Positions 8,478-64,000 of a stretch of 64,000 bases of DNA are shown here, in pieces; position 1 is the first letter of the stretch; the number at the start of each line of letters is the position of its first letter. The stretch comes from Meyerozyma guilliermondii (taxonomy: Eukaryota), in contig CP128815.1 of assembly GCA_051546255.1 (NCBI GenBank), positions 310,001-374,000 on the forward strand, read 5' to 3'. The position numbers and the translations under genes were made by a program. Below the pieces are notes generated by a model that saw nothing but the letters and a program-made list of their open reading frames with translations, did no database searches and was not told the DNA's origin.

Positions 8478-9260
8478 ATGCTGAGTTTGTTCTCCTTGAA
8501 AGGTAAAGTGGCATTGATCACAGGAGCCACGAATGGGATCGGTTTGGGGATGGTTAAGGGGTTGGCCGATGCTGGTATTGACCAGCTCATTTTGACTTAT
8601 CGGCTGGAAGATGCCCTTGAAAAAACGAAGCAGCAACTCAAAAAGATCAATTCCTCGGTTGATGTAGTTGGTATCAAAGCGGACTTCTCCAGTCCAGACG
8701 AAGATGAAGTGGTGAAGAAGATTGTGGAAGAAGCCTATGAAATTGCTTTAGGGCATTCAATTGATATTCTCATCAACAATGCCGGAACCAACATCCGCCA
8801 TCCTTTCGAAAGCTATCCTCAGGAAGATTTTGATCAAGTTTTGCGTGTAAATCTTCAGTATCCTGTCAAACTCACGAAACAGGTGGGATCAAGAATGCTT
8901 GAAAAGGGAGTGAAAGGAAACATTGTTTTCACAGCTTCGTTGGCTTCGTTCTTGGGTATCCCTAATGCAAGTGCTTATGCAATTGCAAAAGGAGGCATCA
9001 AGCAATTGACTCATGTCTTGTCAAATGAGTGGTCTCTGAAGGGTATAAGAGTCAACTCAATTGTGCCCGGTTATATTGAAACAAACCTCACCGACACATT
9101 GGACAAGACGTACAGAGACACCATCATTAAGAGAATTCCAATGGGAAGATGGGGCACCATGGATGACTTCCAGGGACCCATTGTGTTCTTATGCTCTGAT
9201 GCAAGTGGCTATGTCACTGGAGAAATGCTTGCAGTTGATGGTGGATGGTTAGGTTTTTAG
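8478..9260 (+). CDS. SDR oxidoreductase, KduD/2-deoxy-D-gluconate 3-dehydrogenase-like
   Basis: TGATNGIG Rossmann motif, DILINNAG, catalytic YAIAK; C-terminal IPMGRWG...GPIVFLCSDASGYVTGEMLAVDGGWL is typical of the KduD/gluconate-5-dehydrogenase subfamily. Confidence 0.8.
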   Translation: MLSLFSLKGKVALITGATNGIGLGMVKGLADAGIDQLILTYRLEDALEKTKQQLKKINSSVDVVGIKADFSSPDEDEVVKKIVEEAYEIALGHSIDILINNAGTNIRHPFESYPQEDFDQVLRVNLQYPVKLTKQVGSRMLEKGVKGNIVFTASLASFLGIPNASAYAIAKGGIKQLTHVLSNEWSLKGIRVNSIVPGYIETNLTDTLDKTYRDTIIKRIPMGRWGTMDDFQGPIVFLCSDASGYVTGEMLAVDGGWLGF

Positions 9261-27052: not shown

Positions 27053-29023
27053 TCACTCTTCAATACCCTCGTAACAACTTGCAAGTTGATGCACATCGCC
27101 TCTAAACTTGACAGCAACAGGACGGGGGGTATTGGAAGGTTTCTTATTCACCTCAACCTTCCTCAACCCAGTCTTCCAACTCTTCGCACACTCGTCCTGG
27201 GAACTCACCTTTGGCTTCATGTAGGGATTCTTGCGAAGGCAGTTATCCCATGAAGGCCTCTGTTCCTCTTTGAAGTCCTTGGTGCTTCCTAAAGATGGTC
27301 GATCTAAGTTGGAACTGGTGTTTTTCCTACTAGTCGACCTCAACTGGAAGCTTGTCCCGGCTTCATTGTTGGAGCTTGCCAGCGAGCTCTTGAAGCTACC
27401 CAGATAAACCAGATTGTTGGTCTTTTTGAGCAGCGCCCTCAAGTTTTTGAGCTCATTGGGAACTTCAGGTTTTTTGGGACTGTAGTCCTTCCTTTCAGTC
27501 CTACTCACAAGAAGTCTCCTCTTTTGCTTCAATTCCTTGGGGTCAATGACATACTTCGCAGGACCAGCCGCGATTTCCTGTTTGGCCACAAGCCCACTTT
27601 TGGCTCTCTTCAATTGCTCAGGATCAAACAACAATACTGGGCGAGCACCAGGTCCAAGATTAGGTCCCCTGGCACAAGCACCAAGAATGCTTGAAGGCAA
27701 TGGTGGCGGAGGAGGTGGCGGCGGCGGTGGTGGAGCAGCAGCACCAATTGGGGGAGCAGGAGGAGCAACAGGGGCAGCAGGATGAGTCGAAAAACAAATC
27801 CCCATTTCCTTTCCCACTCTTTCAATAATAGCCTTGAGCTCTGCATGAGGAATTCCTTTGAATTCACGTCTGATCTCATGAGCAAGTTGCTCTTCATAGT
27901 TGAACTTCCGCTTCTCAACTTCGGTCCAGTGAGCTGGAGCTGAAGGGATTGCAGTAGGCTGGGGTATCTCCAGGGACTGGAGACGTACTGCATCCTCAGG
28001 CTCCTCTGAATCATGCTTAGCACCATCAAAGATGCTACTTGCTGAAGAAGAAGCCAGTGACTCCAAGAACACAGGCAGAGGAGAAGGCGAGGCAGTTTCA
28101 GTAGATGGAGCCTGATCAACAGCTTCAGCCACTTCCTTGCCAACTTCCTTAACAACCTCTGTTTGTGTCGAAGATTGCTGCACAACAACCTCTTCCTCAA
28201 CAACGTCAACAACATCCTCAACTTGAGTCAGAGTTTGCTGCACCAAATCACCTTCGGTCTCAGCAATGTCTTTCTCAACAACATCCTCAACTTGAGTCAG
28301 GGTTTGCTGCACCAAATCGTCTTCGGTCTCAGCAATCTCTTCCTCAACAGCGTCCACAATAACATCAGTGTGAGTCAGGGTTTGTTGCACCAAATCGTTT
28401 TCGGTCTCAACAGTCTCTTCCTCAGCAGTGTCGTCCATTTGAGTCAGAATTTGCTGCACCAAATCACCTTCGGTCTCAACAATCTCTTCTTCAACAGCTT
28501 CCTCCTCTTCAGTCAGAATTTGTTGCACCAAATCAGCTTCGGTCTCAACAATCTCTTCCTCAACAACAAGCTCAACATGAGTCAGAATTTGCTGCACCAA
28601 ATTGTCTTCGGTCTCAGCAATCTCTTCCTCAATAACATCATCAACTTGGCTTGAGGTAGGCTGCACCAAATTACCTTCGGTCTCAGCCACCTGTCCACCA
28701 ACATCCTTCTTCGAGCCAACGGGTTTCCCTATCAAGGAACATCCTGCGTCTTTGCAGTCAGAAGGCAACCCAAGCATGCAATAAATACAAGCTTGGTTAC
28801 GGCGGCTCTTCTTTGAAAGGCGTTGAATTGAAAGGCCGACTTGAGGCTCAAGTAACCATCGCGAGTGTCTTGGAGTGCACTCTACTCTTTTCACTTTTAC
28901 CAATTTTGGCGTGGTGGGTTCCAAACTTTCGGGGGTCTCAGCCAGAGAGCGACGGACTGAAGACCGTAGGGAACGGTAGGCGCCAGACAAAAAGTCTTTC
29001 ATAGAAGACTTTTTTCTCGGCAT
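27053..29023 (-). CDS. Orphan repeat protein A: Cys cluster, acidic repeats, polyproline, WH2-like motifs
   Basis: 656 aa ORF; CIYC..CKDAGC; seven ETExDLVQQ repeats; 11 consecutive Pro; LLKKT, LRKN and LRKV motifs; C-terminus paralogous to 30652-33279. Confidence 0.8.
   Translation of the reverse strand: MPRKKSSMKDFLSGAYRSLRSSVRRSLAETPESLEPTTPKLVKVKRVECTPRHSRWLLEPQVGLSIQRLSKKSRRNQACIYCMLGLPSDCKDAGCSLIGKPVGSKKDVGGQVAETEGNLVQPTSSQVDDVIEEEIAETEDNLVQQILTHVELVVEEEIVETEADLVQQILTEEEEAVEEEIVETEGDLVQQILTQMDDTAEEETVETENDLVQQTLTHTDVIVDAVEEEIAETEDDLVQQTLTQVEDVVEKDIAETEGDLVQQTLTQVEDVVDVVEEEVVVQQSSTQTEVVKEVGKEVAEAVDQAPSTETASPSPLPVFLESLASSSASSIFDGAKHDSEEPEDAVRLQSLEIPQPTAIPSAPAHWTEVEKRKFNYEEQLAHEIRREFKGIPHAELKAIIERVGKEMGICFSTHPAAPVAPPAPPIGAAAPPPPPPPPPPPLPSSILGACARGPNLGPGARPVLLFDPEQLKRAKSGLVAKQEIAAGPAKYVIDPKELKQKRRLLVSRTERKDYSPKKPEVPNELKNLRALLKKTNNLVYLGSFKSSLASSNNEAGTSFQLRSTSRKNTSSNLDRPSLGSTKDFKEEQRPSWDNCLRKNPYMKPKVSSQDECAKSWKTGLRKVEVNKKPSNTPRPVAVKFRGDVHQLASCYEGIEE
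28165..28690 (-). repeat. Coding minisatellite, about 69-bp unit (EEEIAETEDDLVQQTSTQVEDVV), 7 copies plus one degenerate copy
   Basis: Repeated tgctgcaccaaatc...cttcggtctca on the + strand at about 69-78 bp spacing. Confidence 0.9.
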
Positions 29024-30651: not shown

Positions 30652-33279
30652 TCAAGTCACTTTGGGCTTTTGGGGAGTATCAACCTCCTTACCAATACCC
30701 TCAAAGCTCCGAGCGAGCTCACGCACTTTTCCTTCAAATTTGTTGACGGGTTTGCGAGAAGCGTTTGAATTCTTCTTAGTAACAGAGATCTTTCTCAAAC
30801 ACTTCTTCCAATTCAGAGTTCCCTCGTAGTCAACGACCTTAACCTTCAACTTTGGAAATCTGTCATCACCAACTTCAGAGTCCAATTGTTCCTCATCCAC
30901 GTCACCAGTCACACCGGTCGAACGCAAGGTGCCCTTCTTGGATGAGTTTCTACTGGAGTGTGTCTTGATGACATCAGCTTTCCCAGAATGTGTCAAAGAC
31001 TGAGTCTTTACATTCTTCGAGCTTTTGGACGAGCCAATTGAACTTCTCAGTGAAGCCGGTCTCTTCCTGGGACAGTTCTCATTGTTGTTGATTTCCATCG
31101 AAGTCAAACGGGTGGAGTGAGATTCCCAAGGCTTCTTCAACTCCTTGCAAACCAGCTCGCAACGAGGGCTCGAAGCATCACCAGCATCAATAGCCTTGGC
31201 GACAACGTCAATAAGGCTCTGTGGTCTAGCCTTGACTTTGCGTTCCAGCTTAGAGACAGCAGACTTCTCTTGAAGCTCATCATACGTCCCATCGTCAATA
31301 GCTTTTGCGACAACGTCAATAAGACTTTGAGGTCTAGCCTTGACCAGCTTTCTCTCAACCAGCTTAGTACCGGTACGAGAATCAGCAGCCTCAGCGTCAG
31401 CATCAATAACCTTTGTGACAGTGTCAACAGGACTTTGTGGTCTAGCTTTGACTTTGCGGACCAGCTTAAAGGCAGCAAACCTCTCTCCAAGATTAGCCTC
31501 AGTGCCATAGTCGATAGCCTTGGCAAGAACATCAATAAGACTTTGTGGCCTAGCCTTGACCAGCTCAGCCTTGATCAGCTTTCTCTCAACCAGTTCGGTA
31601 CCGGTACGAGAATCAGCAATCTCGGCATCAGCATCAACAGCCTTGGCAACAACGCCAATGGGACTCTGTGGTCTAGCCTTGGCCAGCTTTCTCTCAACCA
31701 GTTCAGTACCGGTACGAGAGTCAGCGGTCTCAGCATCACCATCAATAGCCTTTGCGACAACATCAATAAGGCTTTGAGCCTTCACCAGCTCAGCACCAGT
31801 ACAAGCGTCAGTAACATGCTTTTCAAGCTTGAGAGAACTACCAGCATCCGTCGAGCCGGTTATGTTACTCAAGTTCAAATTAGCATCCGAGTTCTTTCTG
31901 GTGCTTTTGGTAATGGTCTTGTTGTTGTCACAAACCACAATCAAACTCTCGGTCTTCTTGCAAACGACAGGCAGCTCGACCTTGGAACGAATCCTCAAAG
32001 GGAGCTCACCATCGCTGCGAAGACTCAAGTCAGACTTGGGAGAGAGACTCAATCCCATTTCCTTGGCATAGTTCTCAACAGCCTCAATGACCTCATCAGC
32101 ACCAACACGAGGTGCACAAACAGATGATGGTTCTGCCTTTTGCTCAACCTTCTTGGGCAAAGGATCTCTCTTTCTGGGTAAAGAGGATGATGGCATAGAC
32201 TCTTTTTTACTTGAAGATGGTCTAACATCAGATCCACGCCTAATTCGGTCGCTTCTCAAAGCAGAACGACGAGCAGCATACTGGGCAAGGAGTCTCGTGA
32301 GCTTCTCGTCAACGGTCTCCTCTCTCGTCATGAGAGGAGCAATCTGCTTAAGGGCAACTGGTTTGAGTCGTTCCAATTCCCGATAACCCCCAGTCGTCGG
32401 ATCGCGAACCAACACCTTGTCTCCATCATAAAAAGATATCAGATCCGAACGCTGCAAGAGATTGATCTTAGCCTGGTTCTTTGACACTCTTGTCTTCGTA
32501 CGGTCCATTGCTAACTTGATGGAGCTGAGAGAAGTCTTCCGTCTGCCATCGTCATGATACTGATTGCGACTCAAGTATTCATGAATATCAAGAAAGATGG
32601 CGGAAGGAGGAGTCATATCCCGTTGGCGACGGCGCACTGCTCCACGTCTTCCAAACCATCTTGAGTATCTCAAACGACGAAGCCTGTACTGAACTCTCAA
32701 TTTGAAATGGTACGTTTTTTGTGCACCAAGCTTTATTGCACCTTTAACGCCATTCAAAAAGTGGGCAACACCAGACAAAGTGGATGAAACACTCTCAGAG
32801 GCTCCTGAGTTGCTCTCTGAACCATCAGCGGCATCAAAAATCGAACTTTCTTTACTCTCACTCAAAGATAATTTCGATTCAGTACGAGAAGCCCTTTTTT
32901 CATATTCCCCAAAATCAACGTACTTCATGGGTGGATTCAGCTCCACATTGTGGACCCGTTGTCTCTTTCCCATGGTACATCTGCACTCCTTCTCAAAACA
33001 GACACAAATATTTGCAATACTGTTGGATTTGAGCATCTTCGCAAGAATAGGTAATCTTGCAGTGGAGCAAACGCTCTTCGCACAAGTTGAAGAAGCAGCT
33101 TCCACTGGCAGAGTTGGTAACGTATGCTCTGAGTCTCCAGAATTTCTGGGTCTCAAAGACATAGGCAGAATAGACCCAGTGGATTTGGCCCGATTTTCCT
33201 TCTCAAAAAACCGTGTACTGTCACTTTTGAGCTTTGTAGAGCTCGATTGGTGGTCAAAATTTGATTTAAACCCACCCAT
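30652..33279 (-). CDS. Orphan repeat protein B: basic N-half, KARPQSLIDVVAKAID repeats, C-terminal motif shared with protein A
   Basis: 875 aa ORF; CVCFEKECRC cluster; six roughly 35-aa repeats; WKKCLRKISVTKK...KFEGKVRELARSFEGI. Confidence 0.8.
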   Translation of the reverse strand: MGGFKSNFDHQSSSTKLKSDSTRFFEKENRAKSTGSILPMSLRPRNSGDSEHTLPTLPVEAASSTCAKSVCSTARLPILAKMLKSNSIANICVCFEKECRCTMGKRQRVHNVELNPPMKYVDFGEYEKRASRTESKLSLSESKESSIFDAADGSESNSGASESVSSTLSGVAHFLNGVKGAIKLGAQKTYHFKLRVQYRLRRLRYSRWFGRRGAVRRRQRDMTPPSAIFLDIHEYLSRNQYHDDGRRKTSLSSIKLAMDRTKTRVSKNQAKINLLQRSDLISFYDGDKVLVRDPTTGGYRELERLKPVALKQIAPLMTREETVDEKLTRLLAQYAARRSALRSDRIRRGSDVRPSSSKKESMPSSSLPRKRDPLPKKVEQKAEPSSVCAPRVGADEVIEAVENYAKEMGLSLSPKSDLSLRSDGELPLRIRSKVELPVVCKKTESLIVVCDNNKTITKSTRKNSDANLNLSNITGSTDAGSSLKLEKHVTDACTGAELVKAQSLIDVVAKAIDGDAETADSRTGTELVERKLAKARPQSPIGVVAKAVDADAEIADSRTGTELVERKLIKAELVKARPQSLIDVLAKAIDYGTEANLGERFAAFKLVRKVKARPQSPVDTVTKVIDADAEAADSRTGTKLVERKLVKARPQSLIDVVAKAIDDGTYDELQEKSAVSKLERKVKARPQSLIDVVAKAIDAGDASSPRCELVCKELKKPWESHSTRLTSMEINNNENCPRKRPASLRSSIGSSKSSKNVKTQSLTHSGKADVIKTHSSRNSSKKGTLRSTGVTGDVDEEQLDSEVGDDRFPKLKVKVVDYEGTLNWKKCLRKISVTKKNSNASRKPVNKFEGKVRELARSFEGIGKEVDTPQKPKVT
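31160..31800 (-). repeat. Coding minisatellite, about 105-bp unit (KARPQSxIDVVAKAID...), 6 copies
   Basis: Repeated tcaatagccttg...aagactttgtggtctagccttgac and ctctcaaccag..agtaccggtacgaga on the + strand. Confidence 0.9.
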
Positions 33280-41317: not shown

Positions 41318-41450
41318 TAGATTGTACTATATAAAAGTAATTGAGGATTTGTCTTTGACGTTGAAGGTGAAGGTACTGCTTCAAGGCACTCTACCCATGC
41401 ATATGGTAAAAATATTAAATTTGATATTTGACCGAAATAAACTACAATAC

Positions 41451-41524
41451 GACTTCGTGGCCAAGCTGGTTAAGGCGTGCGACTGTTAATCGCAAGATCG
41501 AGAGTTCAATCCTCTCCGAGGTCG
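41451..41524 (+). tRNA. tRNA-Asn(GTT)
   Basis: Acceptor GACTTCG/CGAGGTC; D-arm GCCAAGCTGGTTAAGGC; anticodon arm TGCGA-CTGTTAA-TCGCA; T-arm GAGAG-TTCAATC-CTCTC; no intron. Confidence 0.95.
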
Positions 41525-41533
41525 TTTTTTTTT
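41525..41533 (+). terminator. RNA polymerase III oligo-T terminator
   Basis: T-run immediately after the tRNA discriminator base. Confidence 0.85.
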
Positions 41534-48923: not shown

Positions 48924-50693
48924 TCAAATATCGAATCGAGATTCTAATCTAACATCCATACCTGCCTTTTCTTGTAAATATTCCTTAACGTCATTTACTT
49001 TGTATTCCTCCCGATGAAAAAGACCAGCGCCCAATGCTGCATCAACATTGCAATCAAGCTCGAACACTTCTTGAAAATGCTTGGGATTTCCAGCACCAGA
49101 GCTAGCGATAACAGGAATTGATACGGCTCTCTTAACCTGGTTGATAAGCTCAAAGTTGAACCCTTTGTTCGATCCATCGTGGTCGATGGAATTCAATAAT
49201 ATTTCACCTGCTCCCAAATCCTCGCAAGCTATGCAGAGTTCTACCGCACCCAAATCATGAACCTTTCTTCCACCTTGAGAGGTAACCTGATAATAGCAAA
49301 AACGCTCACCATTTGGACCATACTTTGACCCGTCGGTAATTTCCACAACTTGCATCGTTGTATCTGATGGCGACAGAACGTACCGGCGTTTGGGATCAAC
49401 GGAAATAACAACCGCTTGATTGCCGAAGGTAGCAGAAATTCTCTCTATAGACGAATCACCGGACTTCACGCCTTTGTTCTGGTAGTACTTTTCTGCGATA
49501 GTGACCGCATCTGAGCCGATGCTTACCTTGTCAGCACCAGATCTGAAGTAAAGATCTGCTACCTTTTCAGCGGGCACGAGCAGGCCAGTTTCTGGGTCAG
49601 TCATATCCTTTATTCCACCGCCCACAGTAAGAGGTACGAAAATCTCTTTTGCTGCTAGTTTCAATACTTCTAACATCGGAAGATCTTTGATAGGAGAATT
49701 TCTGAAAGAAGTGATGTTCAAGAATGTAACCTCGTCAGCCCCCTGTCTGTAATAACGTGTGGCTAATTCCACTGGCTTTCCCAAATTCCTTACGCTGTTC
49801 CCTTCGCCACTGCTTTCTCGCACGTTATATTGGTCCCCTTTTGTGACAACCAAGTCACCCTCGTCATTTGTTCGTACATCTAGACAAGCGATTATACGTC
49901 TGGTAACACCACTCAACGATGAAACTATTGCCTTTTCCCCCTTTTGTACTTGGGATTGTACGTTTTGCTCGAAGACCTTGCCAGTCAAAAAGGATTTCAA
50001 GACTTGAAGTCCAGCAATTCCTGATTTCTCAGGATGAAACTGGGTTGCAAAAAAATTTTCAAAAGCCATGGCAGCGACAAATTTCTCCGTGCCATACCTA
50101 GCAAAGGCAAAGTTCCATCCCTCAGACTGAGCTTTTTCAATTAGGCTTCTGTTCTCTTCACTGTTAATGATTGCGGCATAAGAGTGAACAAAGTAATACT
50201 TATTCACTGTGTTCATGCCATAGTAAGCTTCGTCAGCAGCCAACTGTTTGCCTTGAATATTGATTTCATTTACGGAGTTCCATCCAATATGTGGAACTGC
50301 TTTTTTCAACCCTTTCAGCTCAAATATAGGATCTGAAGAAGCAAACTTTTGGAGCTTCATATTCATGTAGCCCAATCCACGGTAATCACTCACTCCCTCT
50401 TCACTTTCACTAAAAAATACTTGCAAGCCGACACATATTCCCATTAGGGGACGTCCACTTCTAATGTACTCCCTGATTGGAGTCAATAAGTCTCTTAAGT
50501 GGACCTGTTTGACAAAATGATCGAAATTACCTACTCCAGGAAACACCAATTTTTCTATTTCTGAGTTTTTCTGCTCGAATTCAGACCCATTGTGGATGTA
50601 TTCTACTTCATAATCGCCTATGTACTTGATAGCATTGGTTAGAGACTGCAAGTTTCCACTTTCAACGTCAATAACGTGTATTAAGTGAGGCAT
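48924..50693 (-). CDS. HIS7: Imidazole glycerol phosphate synthase (HisH-HisF fusion)
   Basis: [57 protein letters not shown]. Confidence 0.97.
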
Positions 50694-58982: not shown

Positions 58983-60149
58983 TCACTGTAAGAGAGGGTC
59001 TCTGAAATGAGGTTGATTGTTGATGAACTTTGCGGCTCGTCTATCATTAACATCTTCTCTCTTCTTAGCTCTGACCCATGCACGTTTTTGAGTGGCAAGT
59101 TCCTTGCGATCCTTGAAGCCCAGCATGTGTCTCGATTCAGCTGCAATGACTGTCCCCTGACCTTCGCTTAAGATCCGCTCCGGAGCAAGATTTTGGCGAT
59201 AATAACGAGCATGGGCTCTATTTCCTAAAACGGCGCCAGAAGGAAGAACAAGGTCAAGTCCGTCCCTATAGATAGCGTCTGTGGCCCCCAGAATGTCCTC
59301 GTCATCATCATCTGATGCATCTTCAACGTCTTCCCAATCGCCTTCATCACCTTCCGGAACATCTGACGTGTATGTTGATGAGAAGTCGTAAAAATCAGAG
59401 ATTTCTAGTTTCTCGTCTTCACTCTCATAGGGAATCTTCATGTGTCTCTTGTTGAGCATATGGTCACGGACTGCAACAATGTCCTTTCCTTGATACAGAC
59501 AGCACAAGCAAACATTACCGAAGCCTATTTTCTCACCTAAGTATTGAAGCAATCCTTGGATATCAGTCAAATACCTTCTTTCAGGAATGAATAAACCATG
59601 CTTCAATCGCATATGCTCTAAGTTTTCATCTAACGTAGCAAAATTCGACCCGTATTTTCTCTGGCAAAATAAGCATGTAGTGGGTGGTATGTCAACCTTG
59701 TTCTCCATTTTCTCCTTTATGAGGTCTTCTTGACTTGGCTCCGGTGAAGTTTCTTCATCAACTATGTCTTCGGGTATGCTCAGCTCATCCTGTTGTAATA
59801 CAGGACTTTCCTCCTTCAGCTCCAACTTTTGAACTGTAGGATTTTCAACATTAGATTCTTCCGTCATTGATCTTCTAGCCGTTTCAAGTAACTGGCGCTT
59901 CTGTTCGCGAATAGACTCCTTAGCTTTTCTGCGTGCTTCTTTCTTGGATTCTCTGTCTTTAGGTTCATTTGCAGAGGCATCGCCATCGGCATGAACGCTA
60001 ACTTTCGAACGAAAGGTCTCTTCGTCAACCGGTGGCAACTGGGCAACTCGACGTTTGAGATTGTACCTATGCCAGTCTGACCTCATATGTTCCTTTTGAC
60101 CTTGCAGGTCAGAAAACTCTAGCTTACAAGAGTTACAAGTATAATGCAT
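58983..60149 (-). CDS. REI1: Cytoplasmic pre-60S factor Rei1 (C2H2 zinc fingers); likely start MHYTC
   Basis: YTCNSC...HMRSDWHRYNLKRRVAQLPP, CLFC, HM..KHGLFIPE, DFYDFSS, RYYRQ, NNQPHFRDPLLQ. Confidence 0.93.
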   Translation of the reverse strand: MHYTCNSCKLEFSDLQGQKEHMRSDWHRYNLKRRVAQLPPVDEETFRSKVSVHADGDASANEPKDRESKKEARRKAKESIREQKRQLLETARRSMTEESNVENPTVQKLELKEESPVLQQDELSIPEDIVDEETSPEPSQEDLIKEKMENKVDIPPTTCLFCQRKYGSNFATLDENLEHMRLKHGLFIPERRYLTDIQGLLQYLGEKIGFGNVCLCCLYQGKDIVAVRDHMLNKRHMKIPYESEDEKLEISDFYDFSSTYTSDVPEGDEGDWEDVEDASDDDDEDILGATDAIYRDGLDLVLPSGAVLGNRAHARYYRQNLAPERILSEGQGTVIAAESRHMLGFKDRKELATQKRAWVRAKKREDVNDRRAAKFINNQPHFRDPLLQ

Positions 60150-60187
60150 TGTTTCAGATGGTTTCAATTAAGTCTGCTTTGAAATGT

Positions 60188-60206
60188 GCGATGAGACTCA
60201 CGTGAC
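60188..60206. promoter_or_regulatory. PAC (GCGATGAG) and TCACGTGAC (Cbf1) sites upstream of REI1
   Basis: Exact consensus matches about 40-55 bp upstream of a ribosome-biogenesis gene. Confidence 0.65.
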
Positions 60207-60782
60207 ACGAGATGGTGATCAGTTTACATCATCATGAGCTATCATTACATAATCATCCTTTCATCAATTATCATTTTTGGGTATACCACTATACAAGCTG
60301 TATTTATCGAGACAACAAGACTTCCTTTTGGGTCATGATGGGCCTGGTAGCCCCGAAATGGTTCTTCAAAGTGTCCCACTTGATGATCAGAATAGTTGAC
60401 AGCCTGGACTACACTGTAGCAGCAGCTAAAGTCTGTAGTCTTTGATGAATGATCAAGCGTGAGGATTGATGAAATAGTCTCTGCTTATGCATGAACGAGT
60501 CGTTTCAAAGATGGGGACACTAAAATCCACCTCACAGTTTTCTTTCTTCGTGCATTCCAGATCTCATCGAGGTCAACCCCTCCCCCACCAAATAGTTATG
60601 CACAGGTTAGGAGCCAAGGGCACACTACCATCGGAGTAATATTGAATAGTCTGGCCTTGGAGGGGTTCGTAGTCTAAAAGGGGCGGACAGCCAGGACTCA
60701 AGTATCGTCCCGACCCCAAAGAATACGATCATTTTGTTTCCCAACTTCTCCCTGTTTAACATAAATTTCTGCAGTCGCAAGT

Positions 60783-61727
60783 ATGACTATTCGATCTGCA
60801 CCATCGGTTCCAGAAGGAATTTACACTCCTATTCCTACATTTTACAAGAGCCAGAAGTTTGCAGTTGATTTCGAAACCACCGTTAAGCATGCGCAAATGT
60901 TGCACAAGGCTGGCATCACTGGATTGGTTGTTTCAGGATCAATGGGTGAGTCAACCAATCTCACTCTTCAAGAAAGGTGCAACTCTTTGAAGTCAATTCG
61001 CGATGCCATTCCTGACCCCAATTTCAAATTGATTGCTGGTGTTCCACCATCTAATGTGGCAGATGTGATTGCAGAGTCGCAACTTGCTGCCGATAACGGA
61101 GCAGACTTTTTGATTGTCTTAGTTCCTGGATATTTCGGGCCAAATTTAGTTAACCAGCAAGGGATTGTGGATTATTTTCAGTACGTTGCAAGTGGAAGCG
61201 CACTCCCGATAATTATCTACAACTATCCAAACACTTGCAACAATGTTAATATCAACATTGAAACGTTCGCTACATTGTCTCAGCATCCCAACATTGTCGG
61301 AGTCAAATTGACCCACTACAATTTTGACATGTACACTTTGTTGGGTTACGACAGTTCTTTTGAGGCCAATAACTTTAGATCCTTTACTGGACTCGGACAA
61401 GTTTTGGTTCCTTCGCTATCAGTAAACTTGTTCGGCACCATTGACGGCTTGTCAGGAATATTCCCAAAATCAATGGTAAAGTTGTACCAACTTTATAGGG
61501 CTGGTCAGTATGAGGAGGCTGCAACTTTGCAGTTTTTGGTTACAAGAGTTGACTTGATGATCACCGAGTTGAACATGTTGGGAGTGAAACACGCTTTAAA
61601 CCTGATATATGGTTTTGGTGAGTGCCTTTCAGGGAGACCACCATTGAGTAAAGCTGTGAACCTCACTGCCTATAACAAATACGCTGAAGATATCAAGAGG
61701 TTGTTAGATTACGAACAAAAACTCTAG
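60783..61727 (+). CDS. DHDPS/NAL-family class I aldolase, yeast LRA4 (2-keto-3-deoxy sugar-acid aldolase)-like
   Basis: GIYTPIPTF, GLVVSGSMGE, IIIYNYP (catalytic Tyr), HPNIVGVKLTH (Schiff-base Lys), FTGLGQVLVP, GRPPL; overall pattern resembles Scheffersomyces LRA4 and fungal keto-deoxy-hexonate aldolases. Confidence 0.85.
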   Translation: MTIRSAPSVPEGIYTPIPTFYKSQKFAVDFETTVKHAQMLHKAGITGLVVSGSMGESTNLTLQERCNSLKSIRDAIPDPNFKLIAGVPPSNVADVIAESQLAADNGADFLIVLVPGYFGPNLVNQQGIVDYFQYVASGSALPIIIYNYPNTCNNVNINIETFATLSQHPNIVGVKLTHYNFDMYTLLGYDSSFEANNFRSFTGLGQVLVPSLSVNLFGTIDGLSGIFPKSMVKLYQLYRAGQYEEAATLQFLVTRVDLMITELNMLGVKHALNLIYGFGECLSGRPPLSKAVNLTAYNKYAEDIKRLLDYEQKL

Positions 61728-61967
61728 TCAGTATACTCATTTCCACTATGCTTGTAGTATTGCTGATGCCGAAAACGGTTGCAAACCCGATCTTGTCAGC
61801 CTCATGCAGAGGTTGACGACAATAAGGTGCTCCCACTACTATTGAGCCGAACGAGTTTAGTGGAGGATCTTCCAGCTGTCGATAAACAACCTTCAAACCA
61901 TAACACGCTGAACTACTCATATGGTTCGTGATATTTTTATTTTCTTGCAACCACCGAAAGTATGGCT

Positions 61968-62076
61968 CCCCACTTGGTGGGGGATGTATGGGCTTGTTAA
62001 CAATAAACTGGTGGGGGCGGGGGTAATTCTCTGGGGTACGAATGAGAGGAGTTGTATCTCTTTACCCCTATATAAA
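61968..62076. promoter_or_regulatory. GC-box cluster and TATA box upstream of the GH88 gene
   Basis: Inverted CCCCAC-ttg-GTGGGG (61968-61982), GTGGGGGCGGGGG (about 62011), CTGGGG (62031), TATATAAA (62069). Confidence 0.6.
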
Positions 62077-62131
62077 GTGAATACCTTCTAATATCAAATT
62101 AGTACCAATAGAACGTTGATTGATTTAAGTG

Positions 62132-63355
62132 ATGTCCGATTTTAGAGAGTTGAAGCAAAAATTGTACAGCGAATCAGTAGTCGCTAAGATTTGGGGAGTT
62201 GCGTCCTCTAAGCTCAATGATGCAAACCCGCCAACGGAGATGCCCGAGTACTCCTTTTTTGACGACAAAGGATACACATATCGTGACATGGAGTATTGGA
62301 CATGTGGTTTCTTTCCGGGGTCACTTTATGCTCTACGCGAGCGGAGTGTAAAATATAGTGACAGTTTTCCTGGGTCGAAACTTCATCCTCTCAAGCTTGA
62401 GCATGCTGCCAAATGGTGGGCGGAGTCCTTGAAAATTGAGGCACCAAGAACTGATACCCATGATTTGGGTTTTATAATTGCCCCTGTGTTTATTAGGGAA
62501 CACGAACTTACAGGAAGTAAGGAATCCTTAGATATTCTAGTTACAGCAGCAAATGCTTTAGCTAGTAGATTCGACGAAACGGTTGGCTGTATAAGATCAT
62601 GGGACACTGCTGTCAATAAGCGTTACAACTATTCAGATACTCAGAAGGATTACTTGGTCATTATTGATAACATGTGCAATTTAGACTTGTTGTACTATGT
62701 TGCCAAAAAGACTGGAGACTTGAGATTGTCATCAATTGCTACTCGTCATGCCGAAACTACCTTGAAGCACCACTTCAGAGAAGACTGGTCGTGCTACCAT
62801 GTCCTCAACTATAACAAAAGGAACGGAGAAGTCATCGCCAAATTCACGAACCAAGGCTTTGCCGATGAATCTGCTTGGTCAAGAGGTCAATCATGGGCCG
62901 TTATGGGGTATGCCGATGCTTATGCATTCACTAAACAGAAGAAGTTCTTAGACGCTGCCATTTCATTAGCTGACTATTTTTTGGGTCAATTACCCGAGGA
63001 TGGAGTTCCAGCTTGGGACTTTAAAGCTCCCAACAAAGAGGTACGGGATGTCTCCGCGGGAATGATTGCATCGCTTGGAATGCTTAGCATTTATGAATCT
63101 ACCAAGGATAAAAAGTATTTGGACCTGGCCCTCAAGCTTATAGACAACTGCACTAGGTTTGCTTACAACGAGGAGTCAAAGTTGCATGAGGGAGGGAAGG
63201 TTACCTTGGGAAACTTTGATACAATTTTGCACGCTTCCACCATCAATAACAATCCGGATGCTCCAAAGCAGCTTGCAAATCATGGCTTAGTATACGCAGA
63301 CTACTACTTTTTGACTATTGGTAACAAGCTATTAGATCTTGAAGTTTTCAACTAA
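62132..63355 (+). CDS. Glycoside hydrolase family 88, unsaturated glucuronyl hydrolase-like, no signal peptide
   Basis: WTCGFFPGSL, THDLGF and IIDNMCNL (the two catalytic-Asp motifs of UGL), HHFRED.SCYHV, QG..DES.WSRGQSW...GY, VPAWDF, RDVSA, YADYYFL. Confidence 0.9.
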   Translation: MSDFRELKQKLYSESVVAKIWGVASSKLNDANPPTEMPEYSFFDDKGYTYRDMEYWTCGFFPGSLYALRERSVKYSDSFPGSKLHPLKLEHAAKWWAESLKIEAPRTDTHDLGFIIAPVFIREHELTGSKESLDILVTAANALASRFDETVGCIRSWDTAVNKRYNYSDTQKDYLVIIDNMCNLDLLYYVAKKTGDLRLSSIATRHAETTLKHHFREDWSCYHVLNYNKRNGEVIAKFTNQGFADESAWSRGQSWAVMGYADAYAFTKQKKFLDAAISLADYFLGQLPEDGVPAWDFKAPNKEVRDVSAGMIASLGMLSIYESTKDKKYLDLALKLIDNCTRFAYNEESKLHEGGKVTLGNFDTILHASTINNNPDAPKQLANHGLVYADYYFLTIGNKLLDLEVFN

Positions 63356-63419
63356 AAGTTTTAGAGAACGTACTGTTCGAGCATTATTTAGAAACAAACT
63401 AGCTATCTTGATTGCTATT

Positions 63420-64000
63420 CTAAATACCATATTTCTTTCTAGGTTGCCCCATACTGCGGGCCATACAATTTTCAAGTAGTCCCGCGTATTCTCGACATAC
63501 CTCCGACTGGCAATATTTGAACCGATCCTTGAAAAGTGCTATTAAGCCCGCCATGCAATGAGTGTTTGTCAAACTCTCGAGTGCTTCCGCATAAAGATCA
63601 AGAAACCGGTTCGATAAAATGCCTTCCGGTGTGATGTCACGCAAATGGGAGCATATCCGTTTTATGTATGCATAACCATCTTCTCGTATCTTGACAACAT
63701 TATCTGGAGCATGGGATCCAATACTTATTTCAGATTCAGGTCCAAAAAGGCAATAGTTATAAGACCAGATGACGAATAAGGACGAAGCTACGACGTTGGG
63801 ACGATGAAAAATAGGGTCAGTAGCAGGATCGTACAACAATTTCTCATTCCCGTTGAAAAGTAGCTCATGCAAGAACATATAACAATGTAATACAGATATC
63901 CTACCCTTCAAAGAATTTGCCCATGCCTGAATACGCTCTTTGACAACTTGGTAATCCTTCTCTGTTGTCTTCACATTCATTCGGTTGGAAGCTCCGACGT
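63420..64000 (-). CDS. C-terminal part of a fungal transcription factor (fungal-specific regulatory domain); runs off the right edge
   Basis: Frame is open to the window end. IQAWANS..GRISVLHC..FL..LL, LFVIWSY, G..ALF.......SEVCREYA.LLENC resemble the C-termini of fungal C2H2/Zn-cluster regulators. The DNA-binding domain is not visible. Confidence 0.6.
   Translation of the reverse strand, partial: VGASNRMNVKTTEKDYQVVKERIQAWANSLKGRISVLHCYMFLHELLFNGNEKLLYDPATDPIFHRPNVVASSLFVIWSYNYCLFGPESEISIGSHAPDNVVKIREDGYAYIKRICSHLRDITPEGILSNRFLDLYAEALESLTNTHCMAGLIALFKDRFKYCQSEVCREYAGLLENCMARSMGQPRKKYGI

What the first reader, a model, noticed from the sequence alone, without database searches (positions are those of the whole stretch)
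60783..64000. Candidate catabolic cluster for unsaturated uronate disaccharides: keto-deoxy-acid aldolase + GH88 hydrolase + transcription factor
Seen: after a run of housekeeping genes come an LRA4-like aldolase, a GH88 with both catalytic-Asp motifs and no signal peptide, and a convergent fungal TF, with longer GC-box-rich promoters. Established: bacterial GH88/UGL removes 4,5-unsaturated uronate from lyase products of hyaluronan, chondroitin, heparan or gellan; the released keto-deoxy-uronate goes via KduI/KduD (or DhuI/DhuD) to KDG and is cleaved by an aldolase; fungi use non-phosphorylative DHDPS-family aldolases in rhamnose and galacturonate catabolism. Inference: this is a co-regulated yeast module that imports unsaturated disaccharides, hydrolyses them intracellularly and cleaves the keto-deoxy acid to pyruvate plus an aldehyde. 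In a skin or mucosa coloniser this could mean scavenging host glycosaminoglycan fragments. I do not know of such a pathway described in Candida yeasts. The cluster is probably truncated by the window edge.
Basis: partly seen in the sequence, partly recalled or inferred. Interest (0 to 1): 0.85.

Follow-up and report, generated by a model that had tools for sequence, protein, structure and literature searches.

The report
Yeast aldolase–GH88–regulator gene cluster
A Meyerozyma-type yeast carries three neighbouring genes (a pyruvate aldolase, an enzyme that lacks a secretion signal and resembles bacterial enzymes that remove damaged uronic-acid sugars, and a regulator) whose linkage recurs in related yeasts, which suggests an undescribed but still untested route for eating fragments of acidic polysaccharides.

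Summary
Window 60783-64000 holds three genes:
- a 314-aa DHDPS-family aldolase;
- a 407-aa GH88 homologue with both catalytic Asp, an (alpha/alpha)6 fold and no signal peptide;
- the 3' end of a convergent 756-aa transcription factor, which has C2H2 fingers plus a Fungal_trans domain and is not Zn2Cys6.

The linkage looks more than chance.
- In Suhomyces tanzawaensis the three orthologues carry consecutive accession numbers on one scaffold.
- Other aldolase and GH88 paralogues lie 3-6 accession or gene-number steps apart in three cases: Debaryomyces hansenii, D. tyrocola and Scheffersomyces xylosifermentans.
- In D. hansenii an orphan MFS transporter sits next to the GH88.

A paper passage places the rhamnose-pathway LRA4 homologue of C. 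guilliermondii in a different cluster. This aldolase is therefore probably a paralogue.

My best reading (about 0.55) is a module for imported oligosaccharides capped by a 4,5-unsaturated uronate. The uronate would be released inside the cell and end as pyruvate plus glyceraldehyde.

Several things remain untested: the substrate, the missing reductase or isomerase step, co-regulation, and the DNA beyond the window edge.

The host-glycosaminoglycan idea has no specific support. The family is widespread in environmental yeasts and moulds.

I found no description of this cluster in the papers searched. I rate it a new variant of a known kind, of moderate interest.

The parts
60150..60782 (.). 633-bp spacer upstream of the aldolase gene (putative promoter)
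   Evidence: Lies between the ORF ending at 60149 (-) and the aldolase ATG. Holds 1 SYGGRG site.
60582..60590 (-). Copy 1 of the 9-mer TGGTGGGGG
   Evidence: 3 matches in 64 kb, all in these two spacers. The motif was chosen post hoc, and 10 of 500 shuffles give a shared 9-mer with 3 or more copies.
60783..61727 (+). DHDPS/NAL-family class I pyruvate aldolase, 314 aa, paralogue of yeast LRA4-type aldolases
   Evidence: PF00701 E 1.7e-35. PDB 3qfe E 1.6e-38 and human HOGA1 1e-22. K175 lies in GVKLT and Y146 in IYNYP. Belongs to tree clade C1 with the Suhomyces and D. tyrocola copies.
61728..62131 (.). 404-bp spacer upstream of the GH88 gene (putative promoter), G-box rich
   Evidence: Sequence. 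Holds 6 SYGGRG sites; 4 of 254 sliding 500-bp windows reach 6.
61975..61983 (+). Copy 2 of TGGTGGGGG
62009..62017 (+). Copy 3 of TGGTGGGGG
62132..63355 (+). GH88-type unsaturated uronyl hydrolase homologue, 407 aa, no signal peptide
   Evidence: Catalytic Asp pair D111/D179. Belongs to GH88 tree clade G1 with Suhomyces.
63420..64000 (-). Last 192 codons of a 756-aa C2H2 plus Fungal_trans transcription factor, convergent with the GH88 gene (64 bp between stop codons); the gene continues beyond the window
   Evidence: 100% match to P0267. PF04082 E 3.9e-71 and two C2H2 motifs at residues 5-60. The Suhomyces orthologue is the next accession after the GH88.

Best explanation
These three genes form a conserved catabolic module of Debaryomycetaceae-type (CTG-clade) yeasts. 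Its proposed substrates are small oligosaccharides capped by a 4,5-unsaturated uronate, which are the products of polysaccharide lyases made by other organisms.

Proposed mechanism:
1. The oligosaccharide is imported. The transporter is not in this window; an orphan MFS transporter sits in the D. hansenii version of the cluster.
2. The GH88, which has no signal peptide and is therefore presumed cytosolic, hydrates the C4=C5 double bond and releases the unsaturated uronate.
3. [quoted passage not shown]
4. This is converted in one of two ways. Either its aldehyde is reduced directly, which by stereochemistry gives 3-deoxy-L-threo-hex-2-ulosonate (2-keto-3-deoxy-L-galactonate). Or a KduI/KduD-like pair of steps gives 2-keto-3-deoxy-gluconate.
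5. The neighbouring DHDPS-family aldolase cleaves the keto-deoxy acid to pyruvate plus glyceraldehyde.
6. The convergent C2H2/Fungal_trans factor is the likely pathway regulator.

Shown here: the gene identities, the catalytic residues, the absence of a signal peptide and the conserved linkage.

Inferred: the substrate, the import step, the reductase or isomerase step, the aldolase specificity and the regulation.
For: GH88 identity:
- PDB sequence matches of E 1.6e-44 to 3.4e-30 to four characterised bacterial UGLs.
- Fold TMt 0.87 to 3wiw.
- D111 and D179, plus H223, Q241, R251 and W255, are invariant in 23 of 23 fungal sequences.

Intracellular location: no hydrophobic N-terminus. Only 2 of 118 fungal homologues that start with Met have a 10-aa window with KD of 2.0 or more in the first 40 residues.

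Linkage:
- Suhomyces tanzawaensis aldolase XP_020061844, GH88 XP_020061845 and regulator XP_020061846 lie on one 292,755-bp scaffold.
- D. tyrocola has GH88 CUM49730 and aldolase CUM49733, which belongs to the same aldolase clade as the window's.
- D. hansenii has aldolase DEHA2E00660p and GH88 DEHA2E00748p four gene numbers apart. The gene next to that GH88, DEHA2E00726g, is a putative MFS transporter that moved none of the polyols or sugars tested (passages read).
- S. xylosifermentans has GH88 KAK6458510 and aldolase KAK6458516.
- Together these pairs span three GH88 clades and three aldolase clades.

Not the rhamnose aldolase: the LRA4 homologue of C. guilliermondii is described as lying beside LRA3 and the Zn2Cys6 gene PGUG_03589 (passage). 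None of the 35 window ORFs scanned is a rhamnonate dehydratase or a lactonase.

Chemistry:
- Keto-deoxy-L-galactonate is 3-deoxy-L-threo-hex-2-ulosonate (title of PMC2940921).
- In Aspergillus niger it is cleaved by GaaC to pyruvate and L-glyceraldehyde (abstract of PMC5488244).
- The identity of the reduced product with that compound is my own stereochemical reasoning.
Against: - No biochemical or expression data exist for any of these genes.
- The Pfam GH88 model scores below its curated cut-off.
- No transporter, reductase, isomerase or lyase lies next to the genes in the window, and the sequence beyond the regulator could not be seen.
- Gene order in other species is inferred from accession numbers, gene numbers and contig lengths, not from DNA.
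- The recurring pairs may all descend from one ancestral adjacency, so they are not independent.
- The shared promoter 9-mer was chosen post hoc and is weak. 10 of 500 shuffles give an equal result, and the shared 10-mers are matched in 70 of 500 shuffles.
- 0 of 80 bacterial GH88 loci hold a DHDPS-family gene within up to 10 kb (tblastn E <= 1e-5). There is therefore no bacterial precedent for this pairing.
- I recall that this species is not known for growth on uronic acids; I did not check this.
Confidence: 0.55

Rival explanations
1. Neutral synteny. The aldolase, the GH88 and the regulator are unrelated in function and stay together only because this chromosome stretch has not been rearranged.
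For: Meyerozyma and Suhomyces belong to one family, so adjacency could be inherited by descent. There is no expression evidence. The promoter motif is weak. In D. tyrocola further GH88 copies (CUM49747, 49761, 49803) lie 14 to 70 accession numbers from the aldolase.
Against: The pairing recurs for different paralogues at different loci, including D. hansenii chromosome E, the D. tyrocola GH88-rich locus and S. xylosifermentans. At the D. hansenii locus it comes with an orphan sugar-type transporter. The flanking genes in the window are ordinary cell functions, unlike the trio.
Confidence: 0.15
2. A rhamnose-linked module. The GH88 acts on unsaturated uronyl-rhamnose fragments from rhamnogalacturonan, ulvan, gellan or gum arabic. 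The aldolase is a second L-KDR aldolase that handles the released rhamnose, not the uronate.
For: [quoted passage not shown] The S. xylosifermentans aldolase near a GH88 groups with the Komagataella pastoris protein (SH-aLRT 99), and a Komagataella (P. pastoris) LRA4 is proven by deletion (passages). Bacillus UGL was crystallised with an unsaturated GlcA-Glc-Rha-Glc ligand (title of 2fv0).
Against: C. guilliermondii is reported to have its own LRA3/LRA4 cluster with a Zn2Cys6 regulator. The window has no LRA1-3 genes. In D. hansenii the gene next to the GH88 is a transporter, not an LRA gene. I could not place S. stipitis LRA4 in the tree, because it is not among the named hits.
Confidence: 0.15
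3. One reading: the module scavenges host glycosaminoglycan disaccharides (hyaluronan, chondroitin, heparan) during colonisation of skin or mucosa.
For: The best solved relative is the heparin-specific Pedobacter UGL 3wiw. Cluster mates at 90% identity or more are named Meyerozyma. I recall that members of that genus occur on human skin.
Against: The named yeast relatives are Suhomyces, Scheffersomyces, Sungouiella and Debaryomyces, followed by Lipomyces, Aspergillus, Penicillium and many plant- and soil-associated moulds. No named Candida albicans, C. auris or Clavispora protein appears among the 120 hits listed; this is weak evidence, because unnamed clusters may hide them. The window has no lyase or sulfatase. 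Identity of 29% (Foldseek alignment) to the Pedobacter heparin-specific UGL does not transfer specificity.
Confidence: 0.08

Closest known systems
Bacterial GH88 unsaturated glucuronyl hydrolases (Pedobacter heparinus 3wiw; Streptococcus agalactiae gbs1889 2zzr/3anj; Bacillus sp. GL1 1vd5)
   Same: Same fold (TMt 0.74-0.87). Significant sequence similarity (E 1.6e-44 to 3.4e-30). Both catalytic Asp are conserved. Like the Gram-positive enzymes, it has no secretion signal; the location of those enzymes is recalled.
   Different: Only 20-29% identity in the Foldseek alignments. The Pfam GH88 score is below its cut-off. It is eukaryotic. Its neighbours are a DHDPS-type aldolase and a fungal regulator, a pairing seen in 0 of 80 bacterial GH88 loci. 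The bacterial KduI/KduD or DhuI/DhuD plus KdgK/KdgA context is recalled, not tested.
Streptococcal GAG-utilisation cluster (PTS importer, UGL, DhuI, DhuD, KdgK, KdgA); recalled from the literature
   Same: The logic is the same: import an unsaturated disaccharide, hydrolyse it in the cytoplasm, then convert the keto-deoxy-uronate to pyruvate plus a triose.
   Different: No isomerase, kinase or class I KDPG aldolase lies beside the yeast genes. The end step would be non-phosphorylative, through a DHDPS-family aldolase. A KduD/DhuD-like SDR does exist in the window, but 52 kb away.
Fungal D-galacturonate pathway aldolase (A. niger GaaC / T. reesei LGA1)
   Same: I recall that GaaC/LGA1 belongs to the same DHDPS-family aldolase superfamily. 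It cleaves 2-keto-3-deoxy-L-galactonate to pyruvate and L-glyceraldehyde (abstract). That compound is what direct reduction of the GH88 product would give (my inference). NCBI names two related Candida jaroonii proteins 'putative L-threo-3-deoxy-hexylosonate aldolase'.
   Different: I could not compare sequences with GaaC or LGA1, because neither was retrievable. No GaaA/GaaB homologues lie next to the gene.
Yeast L-rhamnose (LRA) cluster aldolase LRA4 (S. stipitis, P. pastoris)
   Same: Same protein family. It is 52-58% identical to proteins annotated as L-KDR aldolase. Like LRA4, it sits in a cluster with a pathway-type regulator.
   Different: There are no LRA1-3 neighbours. The regulator is C2H2, not Zn2Cys6. 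C. guilliermondii is reported to have a separate LRA4 homologue. The S. stipitis LRA cluster is on chromosome 8, while the closest named S. stipitis hit lies on a 1.84-Mb contig.

Membership tests
CAZy GH88 | (alpha/alpha)6-barrel fold like solved GH88 enzymes | tested here: met
   AlphaFold model with pLDDT 95.4. All of the top 10 Foldseek hits are GH88 UGLs, with 3wiw at TMt 0.87.
CAZy GH88 | Significant sequence similarity to characterised members | tested here: met
   phmmer E 1.6e-44 (3wiw), 1.2e-32 (2zzr) and 3.4e-30 (1vd5).
CAZy GH88 | Pfam PF07470 above its gathering score | tested here: not met
   24.2 bits against a cut-off of 26.6, and only residues 260-351 match. The top Pfam row is a partial GH127 match of 27 bits. 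The model appears to represent this fungal branch poorly: 6 of the 120 listed fungal hits carry a precomputed PF07470.
CAZy GH88 | Two catalytic Asp (S. agalactiae D115 and D175; Bacillus D88 and D149, the Bacillus numbers partly recalled) | tested here: met
   D111 and D179 align with the S. agalactiae Asp residues (PDB titles name D115N, D175N and D88N). Both are invariant in 23 of 23 sequences.
CAZy GH88 | Hydrolysis of 4,5-unsaturated uronyl glycosides | not testable with these tools
   Needs an enzyme assay. A 2011 review states that no fungal GH88 had been characterised (passages).
DHDPS/N-acetylneuraminate lyase family (class I pyruvate aldolases) | PF00701 over the whole length, plus the Schiff-base Lys and the catalytic Tyr | tested here: met
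   PF00701 E 1.7e-35 over residues 11-290. K175 (GVKLT) aligns with the conserved Lys of 3qfe. Y146 lies in IYNYP. The catalytic roles of these residues are recalled.
LRA4 (L-2-keto-3-deoxyrhamnonate aldolase) orthologue | Lies in the LRA gene cluster with LRA1-3 and a Zn2Cys6 regulator | tested here: not met
   35 of the 38 listed ORFs of 150 aa or more were scanned. None is a lactonase or an enolase-type dehydratase. The only SDR is 52 kb away. The regulator here is C2H2. The literature places the species' LRA4 homologue elsewhere.
LRA4 (L-2-keto-3-deoxyrhamnonate aldolase) orthologue | Groups with functionally proven LRA4 in a tree | tested here: inconclusive
   The window protein is in clade C1. 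The K. pastoris protein is in clade A. S. stipitis LRA4 was not among the hits retrieved.
Zn2Cys6 fungal transcription factors | N-terminal Zn(II)2Cys6 cluster (PF00172) | tested here: not met
   The full-length protein P0267 has PF04082 and a weak zf-C2H2 hit only. Two C-x4-C...H-x(3-5)-H motifs are visible at residues 5-60. Atlas neighbours are 'C2H2-type domain-containing protein' clusters with Fungal_trans.

The most novel reading that the evidence does not exclude
Fungi have their own non-phosphorylative pathway for 4,5-unsaturated uronates. Lyase-generated oligosaccharides are imported by a dedicated MFS transporter and opened by a cytosolic GH88. [quoted passage not shown] A specialised LRA4-family aldolase then cleaves it.

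On this reading the GH88-aldolase pair was duplicated as a unit in CTG-clade yeasts. The many fungal 'GH88' genes now listed as secreted pectinases would be intracellular enzymes.
Probability: 0.3. Interest if true: 0.7.

Novelty: new variant of a known kind. Interest (0 to 1): 0.55.

Why it matters
Unsaturated uronates are the universal products of polysaccharide lyases acting on pectin, glycosaminoglycans, ulvan, gellan, xanthan, glucuronan and gum arabic. Their fate is worked out in bacteria but, as far as my searches show, not in fungi.

A conserved yeast cluster gives three concrete genes to test, plus an orphan transporter in D. hansenii. If it is confirmed:
- it would assign a function to a widespread fungal CAZy family that was uncharacterised in the 2011 review I read;
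- it would show that these enzymes work inside the cell;
- it would explain how non-lytic yeasts cross-feed on the lyase products of neighbouring microbes;
- it would offer parts for engineering yeasts to use uronate-rich biomass.

Tried and rejected
- The window's own genome is not held, so the DNA beyond base 64000 could not be read.
- The one metagenome scan with the fungal GH88 alignment returned 80 loci.
No expression test was possible, and I did not use read laying.
- The earlier-findings index returned nothing for place, sequence or words.
- I considered that the three genes between the D. hansenii aldolase and GH88 might be LRA2, LRA1 and LRA3, which would place the GH88 beside the rhamnose cluster. 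At least one of them (DEHA2E00726g) is instead an MFS transporter, so I dropped that idea for D. hansenii. It stays open for S. xylosifermentans.
- GTGGGG alone is not enriched in the window: 15 found against 16 expected.
- The shared 9-mer is only suggestive.
- Literature searches:
  - 'guilliermondii' with 'glucuronyl hydrolase' gave 0 papers.
  - The D. hansenii and Suhomyces gene identifiers gave 0 papers.
  - 'yeast' with 'GH88' and 'Debaryomyces' gave 1 irrelevant paper.
  - My last search was badly designed, with min_terms 2 and 6,264 papers returned, and says nothing about absence.
  - The Watanabe 2008 paper on LRA clusters is not held. What I say of it comes from passages in later papers.
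- The M. guilliermondii vka1 genome paper mentions none of GH88, uronate, rhamnose or lyase.


Full report
**What is there.** Read with the CTG=Ser yeast code, the last 3.2 kb of the window holds two complete tandem ORFs and the tail of a convergent one.
- Aldolase: 60783-61727 (+), 314 aa.
- GH88: 62132-63355 (+), 407 aa.
- Regulator tail: 63420-64000 (-), running off the window.

Each complete ORF has a single CTG codon, so the choice of code barely matters. Spacers of 633 and 404 bp precede the two genes. Only 64 bp separate the stop codons of the GH88 gene and the convergent gene.

I scanned 35 of the 38 listed ORFs of 150 aa or more against Pfam. The three left out are two nested ORFs and the shorter version of the regulator fragment. 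The genes upstream are ordinary cell functions: a zf-C2H2_2 protein, a GPI ethanolamine-phosphate transferase, an amino-acid permease, His biosynthesis, phospholipase C, bystin, MatE, Rcd1, RCC1, chitin synthase and others.

**Organism.** No genome is held for this window. Proteins in the same 90%-identity clusters as the GH88 and the regulator are named Meyerozyma sp. JA9. The window is therefore from a Meyerozyma (Candida guilliermondii group) yeast.

**The GH88.**
- The Pfam GH88 model matches only residues 260-351 and scores below its cut-off (24.2 against 26.6 bits). On Pfam alone the call would be unsafe.
- Direct comparison with solved structures settles it. The E-values are 1.6e-44 to the Pedobacter heparinus enzyme 3wiw, 1.2e-32 to the Streptococcus agalactiae UGL and 3.4e-30 to the Bacillus UGL.
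- A model built from 23 fungal sequences has mean pLDDT 95.4. All of its ten best Foldseek matches are GH88 structures, with TMt 0.87 for 3wiw and 0.84 for 1vd5. GH105 and other six-hairpin enzymes follow far behind.
- D111 and D179 align with the two Asp residues whose mutants appear in the PDB titles (D115N, D175N). I counted this from the alignment. Both are invariant in 23 of 23 sequences, as are H223, Q241, R251 and W255.
- The N-terminus is hydrophilic.
- Among the 120 best fungal homologues, 118 start with Met. Only 2 of those have a strongly hydrophobic 10-residue window in the first 40 residues.
- This crude test suggests that the whole fungal branch is intracellular, although reviews list GH88 among pectin-degrading enzyme sets.
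- That 2011 review also states that no fungal GH88 had been characterised (passages read).

**The aldolase.**
- PF00701 covers residues 11-290 at E 1.7e-35.
- The best solved relative is an uncharacterised Coccidioides DHDPS-family protein (3qfe, E 1.6e-38). Bacterial DHDPS enzymes and human 4-hydroxy-2-oxoglutarate aldolase follow.
- The conserved Lys (K175) and Tyr (Y146) are present.
- I built a quick maximum-likelihood tree from 112 of the 120 listed homologues (those of 290-350 aa) plus the window protein. The budding-yeast sequences fall into four groups:
  - C1: the window protein, Suhomyces, D. tyrocola CUM49733 and S. coipomensis;
  - C2: S. stipitis ABN65617 and D. hansenii DEHA2G19448p;
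  - B: D. hansenii DEHA2E00660p and others;
  - A: S. xylosifermentans KAK6458516 with Komagataella pastoris.

**Is it LRA4?** Probably not.
- The window has no LRA genes, and its regulator is of another type.
- I could not place S. stipitis LRA4 in the tree. Its cluster is on chromosome 8, whereas the only named S. stipitis hit lies on a 1.84-Mb contig.
- 'LRA4-like' is therefore right as a family label, and orthology is unproven.

**The regulator.**
- The 192-residue fragment is identical to the end of a 756-aa protein.
- That protein carries a Fungal_trans domain (E 3.9e-71) and two C2H2 fingers at its N-terminus.
- Its nearest Atlas clusters are C2H2 plus Fungal_trans proteins.

I could not fetch fungal DNA, so I used accession numbers, systematic gene names and contig lengths.
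- Suhomyces tanzawaensis: aldolase, GH88 and regulator are XP_020061844, 845 and 846 on one 292,755-bp scaffold. The protein identities to the window are 64%, 61% and 57%.
- D. tyrocola: GH88 CUM49730 and the C1 aldolase CUM49733 lie three numbers apart. Further GH88 copies are at 49747, 49761 and 49803.
- D. hansenii: the B-group aldolase DEHA2E00660p and GH88 DEHA2E00748p are four gene numbers apart.
- S. xylosifermentans: GH88 KAK6458510 and the A-group aldolase KAK6458516 are six numbers apart.
- Two unnamed contigs of 19,115 and 77,859 bp each appear to hold both genes.

The GH88 tree (57 of the first 60 hits plus the window protein) gives three yeast clades:
- G1: the window protein and Suhomyces;
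- G2: the Debaryomyces GH88 copies of the chromosome C type;
- G3: the D. hansenii chromosome E copy, S. xylosifermentans and Sungouiella.

The pairs are G1-C1, G2-C1, G3-B and G3-A. The association therefore survives across paralogues and loci, as expected if a pair was duplicated and kept together. These cases are not independent events, and gene order is inferred, not read from DNA.

**The transporter.** A paper on D. hansenii polyol transporters cloned DEHA2E00726g, the gene next to GH88 DEHA2E00748g, as a putative sugar/polyol transporter. It found no activity with any polyol or sugar tested (passages read).

**Comparison with bacteria.** None of the 80 bacterial GH88 loci fetched holds a DHDPS-family gene; 37 of those loci are 15 kb or longer. 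The pairing is thus a fungal feature.

**Mechanism.** I recall that GH88 enzymes hydrate the vinyl-ether double bond, which releases the unsaturated uronate. [quoted passage not shown]

Reducing its aldehyde group and renumbering from the carboxylate keeps the L-threo centres. The product is 3-deoxy-L-threo-hex-2-ulosonate, which is 2-keto-3-deoxy-L-galactonate (name confirmed by the title of PMC2940921).

In Aspergillus niger the aldolase GaaC cleaves this compound to pyruvate and L-glyceraldehyde (abstract of PMC5488244). One reductase plus the neighbouring aldolase would therefore complete a non-phosphorylative route. This step is my inference.

The window does encode an SDR closest to KduD, gluconate 5-dehydrogenase and the streptococcal gbs1891 protein (E 1e-45 to 1.7e-38). 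It lies 52 kb away among ordinary cell-function genes.

**Regulation.** The 9-mer TGGTGGGGG occurs three times in 64 kb, once in the aldolase spacer and twice in the GH88 spacer.

I picked it after looking at those spacers. In 10 of 500 dinucleotide shuffles of the two spacers a shared 9-mer with three or more copies arises, and the shared 10-mers are matched in 70 of 500.

The GH88 spacer has six SYGGRG sites, the consensus I recall for Mig1/CreA. The aldolase spacer has one. This fits a G-box-binding C2H2 factor or glucose repression, but it is only suggestive.

**Substrate and ecology.** The best solved relative is heparin-specific, but at 29% identity in the structural alignment that does not transfer.

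The named relatives are Suhomyces, Scheffersomyces, Sungouiella and Debaryomyces, followed by Lipomyces, Trichomonascus, Umbelopsis and many Aspergillus, Penicillium and plant-associated moulds. This distribution points to plant, algal or microbial lyase products at least as much as to host glycosaminoglycans. I give the host-scavenging reading about 0.08.

**Novelty.** No paper held both 'guilliermondii' and 'glucuronyl hydrolase', and none held the gene identifiers. One irrelevant paper held 'yeast', 'GH88' and 'Debaryomyces'. None of the 15 papers listed holds the hexosulose term.

These searches cover only the held library, and my last search was uninformative. Within those limits the cluster is undescribed.

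It combines known enzyme families in a new arrangement, so I call it a new variant of a known kind. Interest is 0.55. The locus is real, conserved and testable, but its function is wholly inferred.

Noticed in passing
window 8478-9260 (+): A 260-aa short-chain dehydrogenase. Its best solved relatives are gluconate 5-dehydrogenase (1vl8, E 4.6e-50), KduD-type 2-deoxy-D-gluconate 3-dehydrogenases (4z9y, 1e-45) and the S. agalactiae protein gbs1891 (1.7e-38), which lies near the UGL gene gbs1889. It is a possible downstream reductase for uronate catabolism, but it sits 52 kb from the GH88 among ordinary cell-function genes.
   Followed up: partly
window 27053-29023 (-) and 30652-33279 (-): Two neighbouring ORFs on the same strand (656 and 875 aa) have no Pfam family. 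Each has internal tandem repeats: a period of 69/147 bp at 28186-28687 and of 108 bp at 31567-31761. By eye, their C-terminal ends look similar. They appear to be a fast-evolving paralogous pair.
   Followed up: partly
Debaryomyces relatives (proteins P0016, P0018, P0024, P0025, P0005): Debaryomyces species carry at least five GH88 paralogue clusters. Four of them lie on one contig in D. tyrocola (CUM49730, 49747, 49761, 49803). Three D. fabryi locus tags lie close together (AC631_03435, 03439, 03456). This is a marked local expansion of the family.
   Followed up: partly
proteins P0272 and P0196 (unnamed contig of 51,548 bp): A homologue of the regulator (45% identity) and a more distant aldolase (42% identity) appear to share one contig, judged from equal contig lengths. 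The regulator-aldolase link may therefore be older than the link with the GH88.
   Followed up: no
window 41450-41525 (+): A single tRNA-Asn (GTT) gene lies between the RCC1-like and Rcd1-like genes.
   Followed up: no
window 61716-61727: The aldolase ends in -QKL. This is close to, but not, a canonical peroxisomal PTS1 tripeptide.
   Followed up: no
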